A stretch of DNA of 63,645 nt, filler included, from Hausera hauseri (lineage: Eukaryota), in NCBI GenBank assembly GCA_046269625.1. It is 11 parts of 11 records of this genome, joined end to end, with 100 filler letters (N's around TTAATTAATTAA, not from the genome) between each part and the next. Parts side by side here need not be neighbours in the genome. Positions count along the whole stretch, not along the records: positions 4,226 to 8,448 come from JBJURY010691882.1; 10 more parts are not named here. One strand, 5' to 3'. This document shows, one piece after another, positions 4,226 through 63,645 of this stretch. Position 1 is the stretch's first letter, and each line of letters starts with the position of its first letter. Below the pieces are notes generated by a model. It saw nothing but the letters and a program-made list of their open reading frames with translations, made no database searches and was not told the DNA's origin. The position numbers and the translations under genes were made by a program.

Positions 4226-4332
4226 TTCCTCAGAACTCGGATTGTCTGTAAAAGAAAGAAAAAATCTGTCTGATTCATGTTTTTGCAGCGCGATTAAATT
4301 TCAAACAGCCTCTGTGTGAACCGGTTCCCCAC

Positions 4333-4476
4333 CTGGTAGTCTGTGCTGAAGTGCCGGTCTTCCTGCACCACCTCCAGCTCCTTGCCTCCCCTCACCAAAA
4401 CCGTCCTGACTCCACGGCCGGCCAAGTGGGTGTGCAGCTGGGATGCAAAAATATAGATACCACCTGGGGGCAAAGC
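4333..4476 (-). CDS. dbh: Single 144-nt internal exon of vertebrate-type (probably teleost) dopamine beta-hydroxylase, including the CuM HTH motif
   Basis: Encodes ALPPGGIYIFASQLHTHLAGRGVRTVLVRGGKELEVVQEDRHFSTDYQ, recalled as closely matching human DBH ALPPSGIHIFASQLHTHLTGRKVVTVLVRDGREWEIVNQDNHYSPHFQ. Flanked by a pyrimidine-rich ..tgtgtctccag acceptor and a GT donor, phase 0/0. GC content is visibly higher than the rest of the window. Confidence 0.88.
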
Positions 4477-4653
4477 CTGGAGACACAAACAGGCAGACTG
4501 ATCAGGAGACTTCCCAAGGAGAGAGCTTCTGAATTCTATGGGGGGGAAGAAAAAAAAACCCACTGTTTCCACTGAACGAGAAACCTGGCCTTGCACCCAG
4601 ACCACTGAGCGCACCCCCTCCCCAAATAGAAGAATAATTATGTAAACTAAATT

Positions 4654-4680
4654 AAAAAAAAAAAAACACACACACACACA
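4654..4680. repeat. Poly(A) + (CA)n microsatellite
   Basis: A-run followed by CACACACACACACA. Confidence 0.9.
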
Positions 4681-5040
4681 TATGACAGCTAACAAGGAAT
4701 TAGATAAGAAGAAGAACACAAACAGGATAACAGAAAAATAAGAAAGGAATGTGGTAATTTCGTGTATCGAAACCCACGACGCCAAGGCCTTGTCACTGTA
4801 ACCAGCCAAGTAGTCTACTCTAACTATGCACCCAGCTTACAATTTTCGTGCAACGTTCTTAAATAAAACGACAGTTCAGGGAATGGGGCTGGCACCTTCT
4901 AAGTATGTTGGTCAGGGCAACTCTACCTTCACGAACTTGCAGTGAGGAATATATTTATGCCTCCCCCGTTCTCGATAAGCTCACCTGAGATGTTGTCTGT
5001 ACAAAAATATTACGGATAATATTATAAAACACGTAATATT

Positions 5041-5315
5041 AAAGGAACCGAACTCACGCCTTAAGACGTATAAGGGAACGTGGAGGTAGTGTCGACTTTT
5101 TTACTGACCAGCGGCACGTAATTGGGTTTTGTGGTCAGTAAAACGCCAGGCCGCCTTTACTTTCCCAGAGAATCTCTCCGGTACACATTTTTCTAGGTTG
5201 CGTGAACTCCTGGAGCCGTTTTTTGGTCGCAAAAATTCAACCCTCCACAGCTGGGATCGAACCCCCGATCACTGATTAAAAGCGGACCGCATTACCACTC
5301 AGTCATCGCGGTCCC
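5041..5315 (-). mobile_element. tRNA-derived SINE with a Nin-like conserved central domain
   Basis: Minus strand starts GGGACCGCGA-TGACTGAGTGGT (A box) ... GGTTCGATCCC (B box), then AAATGTGTACCGG...GTAAAGGCGGCCTGGCG...CTGACCAC...GTGCCG..TACCTCCAC...TATACGTCTTAAGGCGTG, resembling the invertebrate Nin-domain SINE core. Possible ACGTA target duplication (5031-5035 / 5316-5320). Confidence 0.75.
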
Positions 5316-5339
5316 ACGTACAAACCACGTAATAACTAC

Positions 5340-5985
5340 AGACAAAAGTCCAATGGTAAATAGATGTCTACAAATAATGTATTCAGAATTAGGATGTGTC
5401 AGCTACCAGGAATGCTGACATTTGTAAATTACAAGCGATCGCATAATACCACAATACATTCTACAGTACAAGTGGTAATCAAAAATGAAAAGACAGAAAG
5501 GACAACAGGACGGTGAAAAATGCCAGCAGATACACAAGGTGGCTCACAACATATTATGTTAAACCAGCTGCAGATATCAAAACATGACACAACCGACGAT
5601 TGCTACGAAACCACATACATAAAGTATACACTAACATTTAGCTAACTAGAAAAGTGGCATGTCATTGTAATTAATAAAGAGGACTCTGCGGTGTTATATT
5701 GTACCAATCCTTCTGTATGGTTGCGAGTCTTGGGCATGAAAATTCTTCCAGTCAACAGAGATATGGTTTCTCTGAATAGAATATCTGCAGAACTTGGTCA
5801 CTACAGGCAAAATATTACGACATAAAAGTAGTGGGCAACAAAGATTGAAGAGCCTTGATGGTTGGCACGAATGGCTCAGAAATAGGGCCTAGTCAACGGC
5901 AGAGATGACTGTGGGGCCAGGTATCGCGAGAGAATAGTCATATGACTGCCAACGCTGGACTGCTCGACACTTTATTACAATGATG
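5340..5985 (+). mobile_element. RTE-clade non-LTR retrotransposon 3' fragment, heavily degraded
   Basis: Reads KRTLRCYIVPILLYGCESW..STEIWFL..LQNLVTTGKI..GQQRLKSLDG..MTANAGLLDT, typical of the RTE ORF C-terminus. Confidence 0.7.
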
Positions 5986-6148
5986 AACAGTAAAACAGCC
6001 GTTACTGTTATCAGTAAGTATCGACTCCAACACATGTAGAGGTCTACTGCATCCAGAATGTTCCTGCTTTCACTGTTAAAACTGGCATGGCTATTAAAAT
6101 TAGTTGCCAAGCCAGTAGGCGAGTTACCTGCAGTTCAACGGATTTTTT

Positions 6149-8223
6149 ATGTCCAGCTTGATGCTGTCAATGGCTTGGCAAGAAATCTCCTTATTCGGAA
6201 CAAACACTCTCCAAATTTGCCTCAAGTTGCCCACTGACATCGTCATCATCAACCCTAAACGAAGGGTCATACCACCACAAGGAAATCAATCCGCCATAAA
6301 TCAATTAGCCTCAGAACAACTCTTCACATTCAAAGATTCTTCACAACTCGGACTTTCGCGAGGTATCTTGTCGTTGGGAAACGCCAAAATAAGTAGACCT
6401 AACTTTCAACAAGGATCAGCCACCGAAATACGAAGAAAGTCATTTACTTTCGATGACCTTCCACAGCAAAAAAGGTCAAAACTTCAAGATCAGTTAGTTG
6501 ACAATCTGAACGAATTGGAACAAGACAGAATAATCAACCGATCATGAGACGAACTGGCTAAGAAATTCATAAAAATCTATGAAACAGGACGCAGTTTGTT
6601 TCCTTCCAAATTCTATCATCGAATTCTAGAAATAGCAGAAAATTCTACCGACTTAATCTACCCAGAATGTTGGTACATCGATAATGGTCTCAAAACTATG
6701 ACCATAAACAATCGCTCATTACGAATTTTGACTATCTCCAGTCCGTTATACAATGTTAACCTCAACAAGATACTAAATCGAGATTCACCTTTCGGAAAGG
6801 TAATGATACATTTAGCACAAGGGAAGATCCAATTTCGAGCTGAAACAGATGTTTATGAAGCTTTAAACCTTCGAAGTACATTGATAAATTCCAGAACATC
6901 TATGAGAATCAAATCACCAGCATTTGCCACTCAAATCTATTTCAAAATCCTCCAACAACCAGTTGTGATCGCTTTCGAGGTATGTCAATATATGGACGAA
7001 CGACTGGGTTTGAAAACTCCAATATTTTATTAAAGAGCAGAAAATCCAACTTCAAGTAATTATCGGCTAACAACAGCCTTTAATTACCGATATCTATCCG
7101 TTTTGTTGCATACGCCTCCAATGGCGATATGCTACCAATTGAAGTGATAATATCCGATCATAACAAATTACAAATATATCAAGCTTATATAAACCCCCGC
7201 AAAAGGATCTCTAACACAAATGAGCATCACCATGGTTTATCCATGGAAATTATCCAACAATCCCAAGACGAGGAAGAAGTACGAACAGAAATAATCAAAT
7301 ACCTGTACGGTTACACAGTAATAAGTGCTAACACCAGCACAATTCTGAAAGCATTACGTATAACTTTAGAATTTGTCTACGAAATATTCGATATTCTCAC
7401 TGCGGAAAACACAAAAAATCGATTTAACGAAATGGAATTTAAAGTTAATTTAACTCAACTCCCTAAAGTCTACAATTTACGATATGAATTCCCAAAGTCA
7501 GCAGAACCTGTTATGCAAGCTATAATGCAGATACATGGTTATTTTGCTAATAATTGCACCAATGAGCAATGGAAATGGGACTGGCTCCCACCAGAAAACA
7601 ATTTGATTAATGACGATGGCTTTATGAAAGTACCAGTAAAGTACCATTCAGATTATCAATATGAGAAAATACGATCAATCCACGAATTACAACTAAACAC
7701 AACTGAATCCACTATCCAAGAATTGACAAGTAACACAAATACTTTGCTAAAAACGACAAAAAATGAAAAAATGATTCGAACAATAGAACTCTCAATACTA
7801 ATCTATGGACAAATGCATCAAATAATTAATGTTCAGTTCATACAAAAGCCTACAGTGGCTATAAATCAACATAATCAAATCCAGCCTAACCCCAGGCTTA
7901 AATCGGCAGTTGGAATAGTGTATAAACATTCCATGAATAATACACTCCATTTGGCGATGGTTGGGGCCCATCTCGAGTCTATTAGAAGTCTCGATCATAA
8001 ACCGGTATTGGTAAACCAACCAATACCGATGCAAATGAATCAAATGCATATCCCTAAACCCAGGGGTAACAAATCAATTAACCTCAGAGGAACTACAAAG
8101 AAAAAATTGAAGATGATACTTTATCAAAAGAATGATCAATTCACCTTAGAAAACCTATACAATATGGAGAAGATGACTCAAACGGAAGAAGTGACTAAAG
8201 ACAATCTAATGATTCAACTGTGA
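6149..8223 (+). pseudogene. Long intronless disrupted ORF with a DEDDh (REX4/ISG20-like) exonuclease-fold domain at ~7084-7530; probable retroelement accessory ORF
   Basis: ORFs 6149-6547 and 6596-7033 share a frame, and one frameshift near 7100 leads into 7129-8223. PIEVIISDHNKLQIYQAYINPRKRISNTNEHHHGLSMEII..EEVRTEIIKYLYGYTVISAN..LKAL fits the REX4-type pattern. No ExoI DxE is visible. Confidence 0.6.
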
Positions 8224-8548
8224 TATCCTATCTTGCTTGTACTTTTTATTGTATAACTCTTTTATTTTATTTTATACCTTTCTATTAACATTTTCATGAC
8301 TATTAAAAAACATTGACAATTCAATAGTGATTTGTTATTTTTCTGATTTCTTTTTCATGCATATTCTTTCATTTACTTTGTGTACCCTGTATTTCATTTA
8401 ATCTGTTACATTATTTAATCTTTGTGTATATATTTTTTTATTTTTCTANNNNNNNNNNNNNNNNNNNNNNNNNNNNNNNNNNNNNNNNNNNNTTAATTAA
8501 TTAANNNNNNNNNNNNNNNNNNNNNNNNNNNNNNNNNNNNNNNNNNNN

Positions 8549-59318: not shown

Positions 59319-59838
59319 NNNNNNNNNNNNNNNNNNNNNNNNNNNNNNNNNNNNNNNNNNNNTTAATTAATTAANNNNNNNNNNNNNNNNNNNNNNNNNN
59401 NNNNNNNNNNNNNNNNNNAAGGATTAAAACAAAAAATTAAAACAAAGAATCTATTACATATCGCGGAAGAAGCCTAAAAGTACTTTATTTAATTTAATGA
59501 AAGGTCTGAAAACAAAGGTGAGAAATGCTAGTAGATTTAATGTTGATTCTGTCATTTGATAATGTATTTTCATGTACATAATACTAAATTTGTACGATTT
59601 TTTTGTCGCCACAACCTTATGTAACAATCTTCTGCTTGTTAATCAAATAGATTTTCAACTCCATGCTTACTCATATGTGAAACTAAAAATTAAAAACTGC
59701 ATAAAGTTTACATAATGCTAATGTGTTTAATCCTCACTAATTCACATGGGAAGAGACTTATTATCTGAACGCGTGGAATTAATGGGAAAAAAATTTACTT
59801 CGACAGATGTTTTAGTGCAATAAATCGGGCGGGAGAGA

Positions 59839-60072
59839 TGTGAGATCCTTACTTAATCCTAACTTATAGGTAATGTGTGGGGGACAGTGTCCTCTAATGC
59901 TGATTTTAGATTATTACTCTCTACGATTTACTTTGCACTCAGTTACTTAAGATTAGACAGGATGCCATCGGGTAGGTTTGACCTGGCCGGCTTGTGCAAC
60001 CAAATTACTTACGGGTTTATTTAGTTATTGACAGTTTACTTAAGGATAAAACATAAAAGACAGCATCTCACG
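59839..60072 (+). repeat. Putative LTR preceded by a polypurine tract
   Basis: GGGCGGGAGAGA directly precedes TGTGAGAT (59839); the inverted terminus ATCTCAC(G) is at 60065-60072. Confidence 0.5.
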
Positions 60073-60479
60073 GATACAAAAACAACAGTATGTAATTCTG
60101 GAAACAAATAAATGAAGAATCCAAAACATAAAAGTTACTATGCGTACGTAATATCAAATGACAGAAGTAATAAGTATCAACGTATTAAATATGATAACCG
60201 TGACAATTAACAAAGAAATAAAAATATATCGCTTACGTCAATGAAGCACATATCACCAGAGTTCAAAAATGTTCGACTAGTTGTATTTTTACACCAATAT
60301 TTATATCCTATTTCACAATCGACTCATCACACAAATAATGAAATAAAAACACAGTAAGCTTATCTTTCATTAAATCCCATTAAGTCTAATTCAGGGAGTC
60401 ATGCAGAAGAAATAAACCAGCAGGAGAAAATCAGTATTCAATTACATTGTAAGTTTATTTGTTTTCAATTTAATTGTTT

Positions 60480-61400
60480 AATTAGCGATCAATCAGGATT
60501 GTTCAATCGGTCAACTTGCTGGGGAGTTAGAAGGAAATTGTACCGAATTTTATTGGCTGGCCGGTAGAGAATGGAAGGTGGTCGTTCTCGAAGCAAATTT
60601 ATACCGTATTCCATCTGGTTTGAAGATTTCGTCATCTATCAATACTTCCTCTATATTAATTCTTCACTTCCTTAATAATGCTTCTTTTGGTCATTCTAGG
60701 ACCCTGTTAGAGGCCGCAGTATCGTTTATGAATTCATCACCCCATCGTAAAGTATTGTAATTGGCATGGTAACATTGTACCAACGCCATGCTACGGAGCG
60801 GCATACCCCGAATTTCATAAAATTTCTTCGCAAGCTCTTTATACGTTGCCGTCTCTAATTTATACTTTTGAATTACCTCTTCGCGATACACCAGATCACG
60901 AACTCTGATCATTCGTCGTAATGGACATAGGAGGTGTTTTTGTAACATCTCGAGAACTGCGGCTCCGACTACCAATTTTTCAGTTAAGATGATGGAAACT
61001 TTTTAATAGAAGACATTGCCATCCATCTGGTTATTAATATTTAATTATGTCAGACCAGTGATGAGAATCAAAATTGTTTATTCGTTGTCTGGAGGTTACT
61101 ATGGTATAGAGTAAGGTGTTTCCATGCAAATCGATAATAGAACACCCCAACGGGCTAAGTTGATTATTTTGGTCGTAAACAAGATTAACAGCTACAAATA
61201 CGATGTCGTTATTGGTAATGTGGGCTAATCGTCTGTAGGGTTTTCCAACGTATTTCAGATAGTCTGGTTCGACAAGGTCAAAACATTTTCCAGGTGGAGG
61301 CGTGATCCAATTGGCTTATGCCCTTATAAATTCCACTCCGATCATAATTTTATTGGTTAGTGTACGAATTTTGAGATCATTTTTCCTGACCAGATCAAAT
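60480..61400 (-). pseudogene. Second, highly diverged DEDDh (REX4/ISG20-like) exonuclease-fold ORF, disrupted
   Basis: Hand translation: DIVFVAVNLVYDQNNQLSPLGCSIIDLHGNTLLYTIVTSRQRINNFDSH/TGLT*..KVSIILTEKLVVGAAVLEML..RVRDL..TYKELAKKFY, following the pattern VALDCE..ARVSIVN.HG.VLYD.YVKP..V.DY....SGI...KV..LL.G.ILVGHAL. Confidence 0.65.
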
Positions 61401-61930
61401 TGAATTGTCACTCCAGATTAATCAAGTCACCTGATTGATTTGTCTTTTTATCTTTTGTTTTTATTTGAAATTTTCCAATTATGTCGTAGATGTTGATGCT
61501 ATGGAATTTGTCGGGAAGACTAATTATATCCTGGAGAAGAAATGAGGTCACCTTTGTTATCTAGATCAGAGCTAACTACTGATTACCGTATCCTTTTAGA
61601 TTGTTGGGGATCTGTTGTACCATAGAGTAGTTGAGACTATAGGTATTTTCACTTATTACAATATGGTATTGATTAGAGGAACTGGCGTTCATGAGATGAT
61701 TTTTGGCATTTTCATACCATTTTTGATGCGTTGTACTGATTGTATTTCCATTAGGGTGATTACTACAAATAGAAATGTCAAATACCCATAGCTTAACAAT
61801 GATTCAATGGTTATCCTAGTAATTTTGGTAATCGTTGTTATAGCAAGTCTATTATATTTCAAGGTAACTGAGTAACGTTCAGTTATCCTATTTTTTGGAT
61901 TGCGTCGACAACAATCCGTTGAAGCCATCG

Positions 61931-62489
61931 TCAATTTGGATTATCTGTATCCAAGATATTTGGTATACGTCGCATGTCTATTCTAGCCCTGTTTGTTCTA
62001 CGACGCTTTCGTGAGTAAGAGACTATTTTTACGGTAAATATTATACCTATTGCTATTATTATGGGGGTTATTGTACATATTAATATTATCTCTAACCGTG
62101 AATGCAAATACGTCGTACGTGAGGGTTTTAAGGTTGTGACTACCTCAACGGTGAACTTTTCCTGTAATTTTATTCTTACTTCATTTCTAGTCAGAAAGTA
62201 AAGACCTTTGTTGATATTATCTCATTATTGTCGTTATAGAGTTGCAACATTATTGTACATACGGTATTTGGGGTCAATGCCACACAGGGCACAATTAAAT
62301 AATGTGGTGTTACTACTCCTTTGGCGACGATGACGTCTCGTGTCTTACAGGTAAAATTTACTTTAAAGAAATCAAGGTCTGGTTTCACAGATATTATTAG
62401 GGAAGTCGGGGCGGTGGTAACTGTTACGTTTTCCCATATGGAGCATTTTGTCGGTAATATGATGTGTATGGTTAAATTAGAATAGTCAT
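61931..62489 (-). pseudogene. Small intronless type-I membrane protein: signal peptide - FN3-like domain - Thr-rich stalk - TM - basic tail (two frameshifts)
   Basis: MTILI/TIHIILPTKCS-IWENVTVTTAPTSLIISVKPDLDFFKVNFTC..LTPNTVCTIMLQLYN..VFTF/LTRNE..VVTTLKPSRTT..IILICTITPIIIAIGIIFTVKIVSY-SRKRRR..DNPN*. Confidence 0.55.
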
Positions 62490-62714
62490 CTCCCTTTCAT
62501 TACATTTATTAGTTAGCAAGGAGTACACATATGATGCTGTGACATTCTTTAGTTCTTCAACATACTCAACTTTATTTCGATATCACACGTACATGGTTGG
62601 TCCTTCTCTTTTTATACTATTCAGAGATTGCCAATATTCTTTCCGAGTAAGCTTGTAGTCAACCATATATAGAAGGTGAGTCAAAAGTAACAAACTGAAA
62701 AGATAAGAATTTTC

Positions 62715-63195
62715 AATCTTAGAAATACAATCCATTCTACGGTGTTTTGTCATCGATCAGCAAAATTTTCGATTCCGACCAGATACCATGCAGCCGGCTT
62801 TGAGGCGAAGAACTCAGACACCCTTCTCGACTTCGTTAAGGTTCCGGAAAGTTCTGCCGCGAAGTGAGCCATCGACTTGAAAAGATGGTAGGCCGAAGGA
62901 GCAATGTCTGGGCTATAAGCTGGATGTGGCAAAAGTTCGATTCCATCCAGCTCCCGAATTTTTTCTTCCGTAGATCGGACGGTGTGCGGCGGAGCATTAT
63001 CTTGCTGAAGCAGAACCCGTTTTCTGTTGACCCTTGCCGGGTACTTTCGGACTAAGACCTCATACATCCGTTCAAGTTGTTGATATAGCTGTAATGCCAT
63101 GGCCATCTGCGACTAGCTCAAAATGTACTGGACCCTTAAAATTCCACCAAAAACATAACATGACCTTGTGTTCGAACCGTCCCCGTCTCGCAACA
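62715..63195 (-). mobile_element. mariner (DD34D) transposase C-terminal remnant
   Basis: KVMLCFWWNFKG; VLLQQDNAPPH; LLPHPAYSPDIAPSAYHLFKSM. Confidence 0.92.
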
Positions 63196-63645
63196 GGTTT
63201 TTTGGGGGTTGAATTTTTAGGCAGTTGACTTTTTGGGTGGTTGACCTTTTTGAAGGGTTGCGACTTTTTTTGGGGTTGACTTTTCTGGGGGTTGTGACTT
63301 TCTTCAAGGGTTGTGACTTCTTTGGAGATTGACTTTTTGCGGGTTGACTTTTCTGGGGGTTGTGACTTTTTTGAAGGGTTGTGACTTCTTTGGAGGTTAA
63401 TTTTTTGGGGTTTTTTCTAGGGGTTGTGACTTTCTTGAAGGCTTGCGACTTCTTTGAAGATTGACTGTTTTGCGGGTTGACTTTTCTGAAGGGTTGGGAC
63501 TTTTTTGGGGGTTGACTTTTCTGGGGATTAAATTTTCTGGGGGTTGACTTTTGTGGGGGTTGACTTTTTTGAAGGGTTGGGAATTTGCTGCGGGTTGACT
63601 TTTTTGGGAGCTGACTATTCTGGGGGTTGACTTTTTTGGGGGTTG
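63196..63645. repeat. Degenerate 16-19 bp tandem array (GGGGTTG[TG]ACTTTTYT), running to the window end
   Basis: Recurrent ggggttgactttt / agggttgtgactt units interrupt the mariner. Confidence 0.92.

What the first reader, a model, noticed from the sequence alone, without database searches (positions are those of the whole stretch)
6149..8223. A second, independent member of the same pseudo-exonuclease family
Seen: on an unrelated contig, a ~690-codon disrupted ORF has the same fold pattern. IYQAYINPRKRISNTNEHHHGLS aligns with LLYTIVTSRQRINNFDSH-TGLT, IIKYLYGYTVISAN with VSIILTEKLVVGAA, and EIFDIL with RVRDLV. Weak similarity extends upstream (IYFKILQQPVVIAFEV vs LKIRTLTNKIMIGVEF), and both copies are followed by T-rich 3' UTR-like sequence. 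Both lack the ExoI D-x-E residues (YLSV-VAY; FVAVNLV). Inference: two very divergent copies in 63 kb imply an old multi-copy family in which loss of catalysis predates decay.
Basis: partly seen in the sequence, partly recalled or inferred. Interest (0 to 1): 0.72.

Follow-up and report, generated by a model that had tools for sequence, protein, structure and literature searches.

The report
Retrotransposon-borne dead exonuclease gene relic
This is a broken copy of an extra gene probably carried by large retrovirus-like jumping elements in an animal genome; in intact relatives the gene encodes an RNA-trimming-enzyme shape that lost its cutting site but is kept by selection right next to a working twin, an arrangement I did not find described.

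Summary
6149-8223 is an intronless frame of about 690 codons broken by two stops and one frameshift; a second relic lies at 61975-60730 (minus). Their direct similarity is weak (31 of 1000 shuffles score as high), but both match one family of intact metagenome proteins (79 and 44.5 bits; null maximum 21.6). Family members carry a cupin-like domain and an ISG20-like DEDDh fold. All 6 aligned lack D-E-D-H, yet dN/dS is 0.08-0.22. In 7 of 9 fetched loci the gene sits directly before a paralogue with the full D-E-D-H-D site; in the 2 loci that reach far enough upstream it follows a Ty3/Gypsy pol extended by ankyrin and membrane domains. Contigs of one sequencing run pile up on the window copy far above the flanks, and most lack its two stops. 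So catalytic loss predates decay, but the family is best read as a retroelement accessory gene, not a host gene family. Neither window copy shows pol, LTRs or the active twin, and the relatives are only about 25% identical. Function (RNA binding without cutting) is inferred. New variant of exonuclease-carrying LTR elements.

The parts
6149..8223 (+). Disrupted, intronless ORF of the pseudo-exonuclease family (copy 1); two in-frame stops (6545-6547, 7031-7033) and one frameshift (between about 7087 and 7107)
   Evidence: family profile 79.1 bits over 6638-7788 against null maximum 21.6
6248..6274 (+). Family N-terminal motif RRVIP (6260-6274); the family's start position maps to about 6248, which carries no start codon in this copy
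   Evidence: only RR[VI]IP match in the six frames of the window; RRVIP follows the start within 2-4 codons in the 4 loci compared; multi-copy cover starts in the 6200-6340 bin
6677..6982 (+). Cupin-like beta-barrel domain (inferred from the paralogue's model); keeps the His and Glu that are invariant in the family
   Evidence: combined profile E 5.8e-4; H and E invariant in 11 of 11 rows; model of the active paralogue matches cupins at E 2e-5 to 8e-5
7090..7584 (+). ISG20/REX4-like DEDDh exonuclease fold without catalytic residues (Ser at the first Asp position in both registers, Ile at ExoII Asp, Val at ExoIII Asp)
   Evidence: family HMM E 2.5e-14; Pfam RNase_T E 0.065; ESM features 0.93 to RNase_T clusters; positions
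7620..8220 (+). C-terminal extension of about 200 codons, part of the repeat but with no match found
   Evidence: covered at summed depth 35-297; z at most 1.3 against 9 family and neighbouring ORFs; no Pfam hit there
8224..8448 (+). T-rich tract (55% T) up to the contig end; 3' UTR or inter-gene spacer (spacers before the active paralogue are 285-342 bases in relatives, longer than what remains here)
   Evidence: contig ends at the N run 8449
60730..61975 (-). Second, more decayed family member (copy 2): MRRIPN at 61975, QIPNNLK at 61614, dead exonuclease domain 61198-60730
   Evidence: 44.5 bits against null 21.6; tblastn E 2.2e-5 with the L003 gene; z 10-23 against the 5 pseudo-enzyme proteins; N-terminal part z 2.5-3.7
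62033..62089 (-). Hydrophobic 19-residue stretch followed by a basic cluster just upstream of copy 2; possibly the membrane anchor ending an upstream polyprotein, as in L001 and L003
   Evidence: hydropathy 2.73, reached at 7 places in the window's six frames; similarity to polyprotein tails weak (z -0.2, 2.9, 1.1); tail HMM gave no hit

Best explanation
The stretch is a dead genomic copy of an accessory gene of a lineage of giant Ty3/Gypsy LTR retroelements. An ancestral element carried a cupin-plus-ISG20-like 3'-5' exonuclease gene and duplicated it in tandem; one twin kept the catalytic site, the other lost it and was retained by purifying selection as a non-cutting nucleic-acid-binding protein. 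Shown: family membership, fold, catalytic loss in intact members, purifying selection, tandem pairing and pol linkage in the relatives, many similar sequences in this organism's run, neutral-looking decay of this copy. Inferred: that the window's copies came from such an element; that the genes are expressed from spliced sub-genomic RNAs; and the mechanism, most likely (about 50%) that the dead twin binds RNA 3' ends or structured element RNA and so shields or chaperones it, or steers the active twin, during the element's replication.
For: A search of 1.84 billion representatives gave one hit, P0002 (E 3.8e-4), which led to 5 intact proteins of 446-486 aa. Their profile scores both window copies above the null while the active-paralogue profile does not (24.6 and 20.4 against null 26.2). 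Fold: model of P0006 hits ISG20L2, PAN2, ISG20, SDN1 (best E 6.4e-5); profile hits ISG20L2 E 9.1e-5. Catalytic columns read S, R/K, Q, gap, E/M in 6 of 6 pseudo rows and D, E, D, H, D in 6 of 6 active rows. The two genes are paralogues over 299 columns (probability 98.6, E 5.3e-16). dN/dS 0.08-0.22 in the 14 of 23 pseudo pairs that were not saturated, e.g. 0.078 (0.04-0.13) over 248 codons. Active twin directly downstream in 7 of 9 loci; PR-RT-RNaseH-integrase polyprotein directly upstream in L001 and L003. Spacer ends AG|ATG before the active gene in 4 of 4 printed. In run X1 summed depth is 35-297 across 6200-8173 against 0.3-1.3 just upstream; at both stops most of the laid depth (12 contigs each) reads through; 9 of the 11 listed indel rows in the ORF keep the frame; the 27 listed differences fall 9/10/8 on codon positions 1/2/3, as expected of unselected decay. 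At the ExoIII Asp codon 57.8 of 61.5 depth carries a first base that cannot begin an Asp or Glu codon.
Against: No pol, LTR or active twin is seen beside either window copy: copy 1 is preceded by unrelated repeats and cut by the contig end; copy 2 has 1.1 kb downstream with no hit to the active profile. Identity to the relatives is only 22-26% and both copies are long branches attaching on the stem between the pseudo and active groups, so separate catalytic losses are not excluded. Replacement residues differ between copies and relatives except the Ser of copy 1. 7 of the 9 loci share one assembly id and L004 repeats L003, so the context rests on few independent sources. No locus reaches gag or an LTR. 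The P0006 model is poor (mean pLDDT 36.9; about 55-65 in the exonuclease part). Summed contig depth is not a copy number, only 40 substitution and 12 indel rows were shown, and X1 may be the window's own source. No evidence on binding or expression.
Confidence: 0.72

Rival explanations
1. Same gene family, but in this genome it travels in another vehicle: a short non-autonomous retro-element made from the spliced sub-genomic RNA, or a different element class that shares accessory genes.
For: Multi-copy cover starts sharply near the family start motif (about 6200) and fades after the stop (6.5-11.6 beyond 8174), as a gene-sized unit would give; no RT or LTR next to either copy; accessory exonuclease genes are shared between LTR and Penelope-like elements in rotifers (PMC5408684, passages).
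Against: Truncated relics are expected in a fragmentary assembly full of decayed elements; copy 2 has a membrane-anchor-like stretch upstream at the place where relatives end their polyprotein, though weakly similar; every relative with enough upstream DNA shows the polyprotein or its tail (4 of 4: L001, L003, L004, L005).
Confidence: 0.17
2. Retrocopies or expanded pseudogenes of a host ISG20/REX4-like gene, with the catalytic residues lost during decay.
For: Intronless, ISG20-like fold, T-rich 3' end, lying antisense near a host monooxygenase exon.
Against: Intact relatives already lack the site and are under purifying selection; shared non-nuclease features (RRVIP, QIPNNLK, cupin His/Glu) tie the copies to the element-borne family; a host REX4/ISG20 gene would have given many strong hits, yet only 1 protein reached E 0.001 in 1.84 billion.
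Confidence: 0.05
3. The dead twin does not bind nucleic acid at all; it is kept as a protein scaffold or decoy, for example soaking up a host inhibitor or sensor, or oligomerising through the cupin domain.
For: The best structural matches of the N-terminal domain include the CENP-C cupin, a dimerisation module by my recall; the same elements carry ankyrin and ubiquitin-like genes that suggest interference with host proteins.
Against: Acidic catalytic positions are replaced by Ser, Arg/Lys and Gln, which suits phosphate binding; known dead DEDD folds (Exuperantia, PML PXL, Maelstrom, EXD1) bind RNA (PMC13659232, PMC5408684, passages).
Confidence: 0.25
4. Endogenised gene of an RNA or DNA virus (nucleoprotein-type or giant-virus exonuclease).
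For: ESM features list an arenavirus nucleoprotein cluster at 0.86 (a lead only); viral DEDDh proteins match the active paralogue's fold.
Against: No relative in IMG/VR with three protein queries; the only relatives with context are pol-linked.
Confidence: 0.04

Closest known systems
ORF3 DEDDy exonucleases of bdelloid-rotifer LTR retrotransposons Juno and Vesta, shared with Athena/Terminon elements (PMC5408684, passages read)
   Same: Extra 3'-5' exonuclease gene downstream of pol in an LTR element; dUTPase-like segment between protease and RT is reported there and a similar-looking segment is present in L001/L003 (my reading, no Pfam hit).
   Different: Those are RNase D-like DEDDy enzymes with intact catalytic residues, as a single ORF3. 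Here the fold is ISG20/REX4-like DEDDh, fused to a cupin-like domain, and present as a tandem dead-plus-active pair among several extra ORFs.
Burro giant Gypsy-like elements of planarians (PMC6431247, passages read; the original 2018 genome paper not read)
   Same: Very long Gypsy polyprotein with ankyrin repeats, a ubiquitin-like domain and accessory ORFs.
   Different: The passages read list no exonuclease or cupin for Burro; its env-like region lies between gag and pol, whereas here two membrane helices and beta-rich domains end the polyprotein. Relationship by RT tree not tested.
ISG20 / ISG20L2 / SDN1 / PAN2 DEDDh exonucleases
   Same: Closest solved structures: active twin to ISG20 Z 21.2, rmsd 2.1 over 162 residues, profile E 1.4e-15 to ISG20L2; dead twin E 9.1e-5.
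   Different: Host enzymes, active, no cupin-like domain; the gene studied here lacks the metal-binding residues.
Host DEDD pseudonucleases Exuperantia and PML PXL (PMC13659232, passages read), Maelstrom and EXD1 (PMC5408684, passage)
   Same: DEDD fold kept without catalysis; functional model of RNA binding.
   Different: Host genes; Exuperantia and PXL pair the fold with a SAM-like domain; none is reported there as element-borne or paired with an active twin. Analogy only, not membership.

Membership tests
DEDDh exonucleases (ISG20/REX4/AEN-like) | RNase H-like DEDD exonuclease fold | tested here: met
   for intact relatives; window copy 1 by family HMM E 2.5e-14 and ESM 0.93
DEDDh exonucleases (ISG20/REX4/AEN-like) | ExoI D-x-E | tested here: not met
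   S and R/K in 6 of 6 intact relatives; no D or E in either window copy under either register
DEDDh exonucleases (ISG20/REX4/AEN-like) | ExoII Asp and ExoIII His plus Asp | tested here: not met
   Q; gap; E in 5 and M in 1 of 6 relatives; Ile and Val in copy 1
DEDDh exonucleases (ISG20/REX4/AEN-like) | Metal-dependent 3'-5' exonuclease activity | not testable with these tools
   needs a bench assay
Accessory ORF of a Ty3/Gypsy LTR retroelement | PR-RT-RNaseH-integrase pol in the same element (intact relatives) | tested here: met
   L001 and L003, the 2 of 9 loci that reach that far
Accessory ORF of a Ty3/Gypsy LTR retroelement | pol linked to the window copies themselves | tested here: inconclusive
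   RT relics in the window lie on other contigs or beyond a contig join and are 26-50% identical pieces; upstream of copy 2 only a weak membrane-anchor resemblance
Accessory ORF of a Ty3/Gypsy LTR retroelement | gag, paired LTRs, primer site, polypurine tract | tested here: inconclusive
   L001 and L003 begin inside the polyprotein; no repeats shared by the two window contigs other than an internal tandem array
Accessory ORF of a Ty3/Gypsy LTR retroelement | Many dispersed, intronless copies that decay neutrally | tested here: met
   depth is summed contig depth, not a count, from one run
Juno/Vesta DEDDy ORF3 (bdelloid rotifers) | RNase D-like DEDDy type with intact catalytic residues | tested here: not met
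   the active twin has the DEDDh His and ISG20 affinity; the gene studied is catalytically dead
Burro giant Gypsy elements | Giant polyprotein with ankyrin repeats and ubiquitin-like domain | tested here: met
   Ank_2 E 1.7e-11 and 1.3e-10; ubiquitin E 6.6e-7 in L002 and 0.04 in L003, as separate ORFs
Burro giant Gypsy elements | BIR, BCL2-like, MATH domains and env between gag and pol | tested here: inconclusive
   not among Pfam hits, but the 5' part of the elements is missing
Burro giant Gypsy elements | RT groups with Burro | not tested
   no Burro sequence available from the tools
EXO-SAM pseudonucleases (Exuperantia, PXL) | SAM-like domain after the dead exonuclease | tested here: inconclusive
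   no Pfam hit and model unreliable beyond residue 350

The most novel reading that the evidence does not exclude
An old, widespread but undescribed lineage of giant animal Ty3/Gypsy elements encodes its own enzyme/pseudo-enzyme pair of cupin-ISG20-like nucleases that works as a counter-silencing or RNA-quality module: the dead twin caps or sequesters RNA 3' ends (element RNA or host small RNAs) while the active twin trims or destroys them.
Probability: 0.2. Interest if true: 0.8.

Novelty: new variant of a known kind. Interest (0 to 1): 0.52.

Why it matters
Why some LTR elements carry exonucleases is an open question: the rotifer paper that reported them notes activity was not demonstrated (PMC5408684). 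This family adds a second, independent nuclease type (DEDDh, cupin-fused) and supplies a natural matched pair, one active-site-intact and one dead, both under selection in the same element. That makes 'cutting versus binding' directly testable with two proteins, and may point to how animal retroelements handle host RNA surveillance. The window copy itself is junk; its value is as the pointer to the family.

Tried and rejected
No whole genome is held for this window, so copies could not be counted or their flanks read. Word-index search with the 379-aa piece found nothing among 208-664-aa proteins; a profile including the window pieces found only the same 5 proteins; longer or shorter forms were not searched. 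No relatives in IMG/VR or GTDB genomes. The spacer motif was not found in IMG/VR or in the window; Rfam gave one weak chance-level match; no tRNA genes in 4 loci. Binding of the two twins: complex prediction returned no verdict (score 0.00, partner fold uncertain). Sequencing runs: no RNA holder listed. ESM Atlas gave no usable hit for the N-terminal 200 residues of P0003; sequence searches of the N-terminal domain against PDB and Pfam gave nothing consistent, and the PilZN hit of one member (E 1.3e-5 in 1 of 11) was set aside in favour of the cupin fold match. A third candidate copy at 11996-11895 (26.1 bits, 34 codons) and one at about 12260-12080 (E 0.012) were judged probably chance. Similarity of the region upstream of copy 2 to the polyprotein tail was not significant; one comparison used the wrong frame and was redone. 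Trees lack an outgroup and the window rows are long branches. Earlier-finding look-ups by place and sequence returned nothing.

Full report
Setting. The window is a string of short contigs joined by N runs from an animal: it holds exons of a copper monooxygenase, TPR, an Ig-domain and a VWD protein, and several reverse-transcriptase relics. The finding lies on the contig 4226-8448; the other copy lies on 59419-63645. No whole genome is held.

Observation. A frame opens at ATG 6149, is interrupted by stops at 6545-6547 and 7031-7033, shifts frame between about 7087 and 7107 and ends at 8221-8223. Alone, the evidence for an exonuclease fold is faint: Pfam RNase_T E 0.065, PolC exonuclease E 0.44, ESM features 0.93 with RNase_T clusters. 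The two copies barely resemble each other directly: tblastn E 0.38; local score 45, reached by 31 of 1000 shuffles.

The family. A full HMMER search of 1.84 billion representatives with the 379-aa piece gave 1 hit, P0002 (E 3.8e-4). P0002 retrieved 4 more intact proteins, 42-73% identical over nearly the whole length; none has an informative name. Their profile finds copy 1 at E 2.5e-14 and copy 2 in pieces at E 5e-4 and 0.01. A frameshift-aware scan of both strands gives 79.1 bits for copy 1 and 44.5 for copy 2; the next peak is 26.1 and reversed sequence reaches 21.6. Each copy scores z 6-16 and z 10-23 against the 5 proteins. Motifs outside the nuclease domain agree: RRVIP at 6260 and MRRIPN at 61975 match the family's start, QIPNNLK at 61614 matches a near-invariant motif, and copy 1 keeps the invariant His and Glu of the N-terminal domain.

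Context of the relatives. A metagenome scan returned 9 loci of 218 candidate stretches. In 7 of 9 the gene is followed, after a spacer of about 290-340 bases, by a 430-443-codon gene with Pfam RNase_T E 1.5e-11 to 5.8e-8 in the 3 scanned; the other 2 loci end first. In L001 and L003 it is preceded by an open frame of 2220 and 2368 codons, both cut at the 5' end, with protease, RT, RNase H and integrase in Ty3/Gypsy order, then a second protease domain, ankyrin repeats and two membrane helices around beta-rich domains; L004 and L005 show the tail only. L002, L003 and L004 carry a ubiquitin-like gene further down. Limits: 7 of 9 loci share one assembly id, L004 repeats L003 over both genes, and no locus reaches gag or an LTR.

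Dead and active twins. The two neighbouring genes are paralogues over 299 columns, N-terminal domain included (probability 98.6, E 5.3e-16). The five catalytic columns read D, E, D, H, D in 6 of 6 downstream genes, and S, R/K, Q, gap, E/M in 6 of 6 family members. The downstream twin models as ISG20 (Z 21.2, rmsd 2.1, 162 residues); a poor model of the dead twin (mean pLDDT 36.9) still ranks ISG20L2, PAN2, ISG20 and SDN1 first. The N-terminal domain of the active twin (pLDDT about 65-75) matches cupin-type barrels in both structure libraries (E 2e-5 to 8e-5 in PDB); this rests on one model, and sequence searches did not confirm it. Nei-Gojobori dN/dS is 0.08-0.22 for the 14 of 23 unsaturated dead-twin pairs and 0.07-0.16 for 10 of 15 active-twin pairs; the cleanest dead-twin pair covering cupin and nuclease folds gives 0.078 (0.04-0.13, 248 codons); pairs with L008 and L009 cover only the tail. 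The window copies side with the dead twin: the active profile gives no peak above its null and z scores are 2.7-7.7. In trees each copy lies outside the active group but on a long branch at the stem, so one shared loss of catalysis is plausible, not shown.

The copy in its own genome. One run, X1, holds the stretch and may be the window's source. Laid at 80% likeness, its contigs give summed depth 35-297 over 6200-8173, against 0.3-1.3 in the 280 bases upstream and 2.8-9.5 over the host exon region. This is no copy count, but up to 18 distinct contigs cover single sites. At both stops most of the depth reads through, 4 contigs differ by a one-base indel at the frameshift, and 9 of the 11 listed indel rows in the ORF are multiples of three or compensating pairs. 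The 27 listed substitutions in the ORF split 9/10/8 over codon positions, as for unselected decay of this copy. At the codon aligned to the ExoIII Asp, 57.8 of 61.5 depth has a first base incompatible with Asp or Glu, so that residue is missing in the local family too. Only 40 substitution rows and 12 indel rows were shown.

How it most likely works. Shown for relatives: pol, then dead twin, then active twin, all open and under selection. The spacer before the active gene ends in AG immediately before ATG in 4 of 4 printed, which I read as a splice acceptor for sub-genomic RNAs (inference from how Gypsy third ORFs are expressed, recalled). The dead twin has swapped acidic metal ligands for Ser, Arg/Lys and Gln, which would suit holding a nucleic-acid end without cutting; host pseudonucleases with this fold bind RNA (PMC13659232 and PMC5408684, passages). 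I put RNA binding in service of the element at about 50%, a protein-scaffold or decoy role at about 25%. That the window copies came from such an element is inferred from family membership (about 0.72 overall); neither copy shows pol or the twin, and copy 2 has 1.1 kb of downstream DNA without it, so its lineage may have lacked or lost the twin.

Comparison with what is known. Exonuclease third ORFs are described for rotifer Juno and Vesta elements, but they are DEDDy, intact and single (PMC5408684, passages; restated in PMC5718144, passages). Planarian Burro elements are giant Gypsy elements with ankyrin and ubiquitin-like parts; the passages read name no exonuclease (PMC6431247; the original genome paper and all supplements were not seen and may bear on this). 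Nine literature searches (listings and abstracts only, apart from the four papers named) showed no ISG20-like, cupin-fused or dead-plus-active exonuclease pair in an LTR element; the library lacks most subscription journals and repeat databases. Two earlier unchecked notes of this scan describe Rrp6-like genes in other invertebrate LTR elements, one of them dead; untested here, they suggest exonuclease capture recurs, which lowers the surprise of the general theme but concerns a different nuclease type.

Verdict. Observation confirmed; interpretation partly supported. A decayed member of an unnamed, selected pseudo-exonuclease family that is most likely an accessory gene of giant Ty3/Gypsy elements, twinned with an active paralogue. 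New variant of a known kind; interest 0.52.

Noticed in passing
L001:8385-8500, L003:8812-8950, L002:1536-1578, L006:719-760, L008:391-432, L009:379-422: A conserved motif of about 35 bases (core GTAGGAGG ... CCCAA) in the spacer between the dead and active genes, twice in L001 and L003; predicted two-stem hairpin with an internal loop, 4 of 9 pairs with a two-sided change. No Rfam match; absent from the window. Could be a splicing, translation or protein-binding signal.
   Followed up: partly
L001:1-6660, L003:3-7106: The pol frame continues past integrase into a second aspartic protease domain with an intact DTG motif, ankyrin repeats, a membrane helix, beta-rich (weakly Fn3-like) domains and a second membrane helix: an unusual Gypsy polyprotein tail.
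   Followed up: partly
L002:4038-4625, L003:10906-11517, L002:3113-3433: Further accessory ORFs downstream of the nuclease pair: a ubiquitin-like protein (E 6.6e-7 in L002) and a short acidic ORF without a Pfam hit.
   Followed up: no
window 6271-7056: Two contigs of run X1 (depth 45 and 15.5) join about 6271-6277 to 7056, skipping the cupin-like part; short anchors (21-28 bases), possibly a deletion derivative of the family.
   Followed up: no
window 5060-5320 and about 5650-5950: A very high-copy short repeat (summed depth up to 254,000; looks like a tRNA-derived SINE, my reading) and a LINE-like RT relic (depth about 2,000; motif recalled) lie just upstream of the finding.
   Followed up: no
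window 4327-4482 (-): Exon of a copper type II monooxygenase (Pfam E 1.4e-14); the finding lies antisense about 1.7 kb from it, probably in an intron.
   Followed up: no
window 62750-63190 (-) and 63198-63645: A mariner-like transposase relic (motif recalled) and a lysine/serine/proline-rich tandem array cap the contig upstream of copy 2.
   Followed up: no
window 62191-62496 (-): A 101-codon open beta-strand-like frame upstream of copy 2's membrane-like stretch; resembles by eye the ectodomain repeats of the polyprotein tail but is not significant (z at most 1.4).
   Followed up: partly
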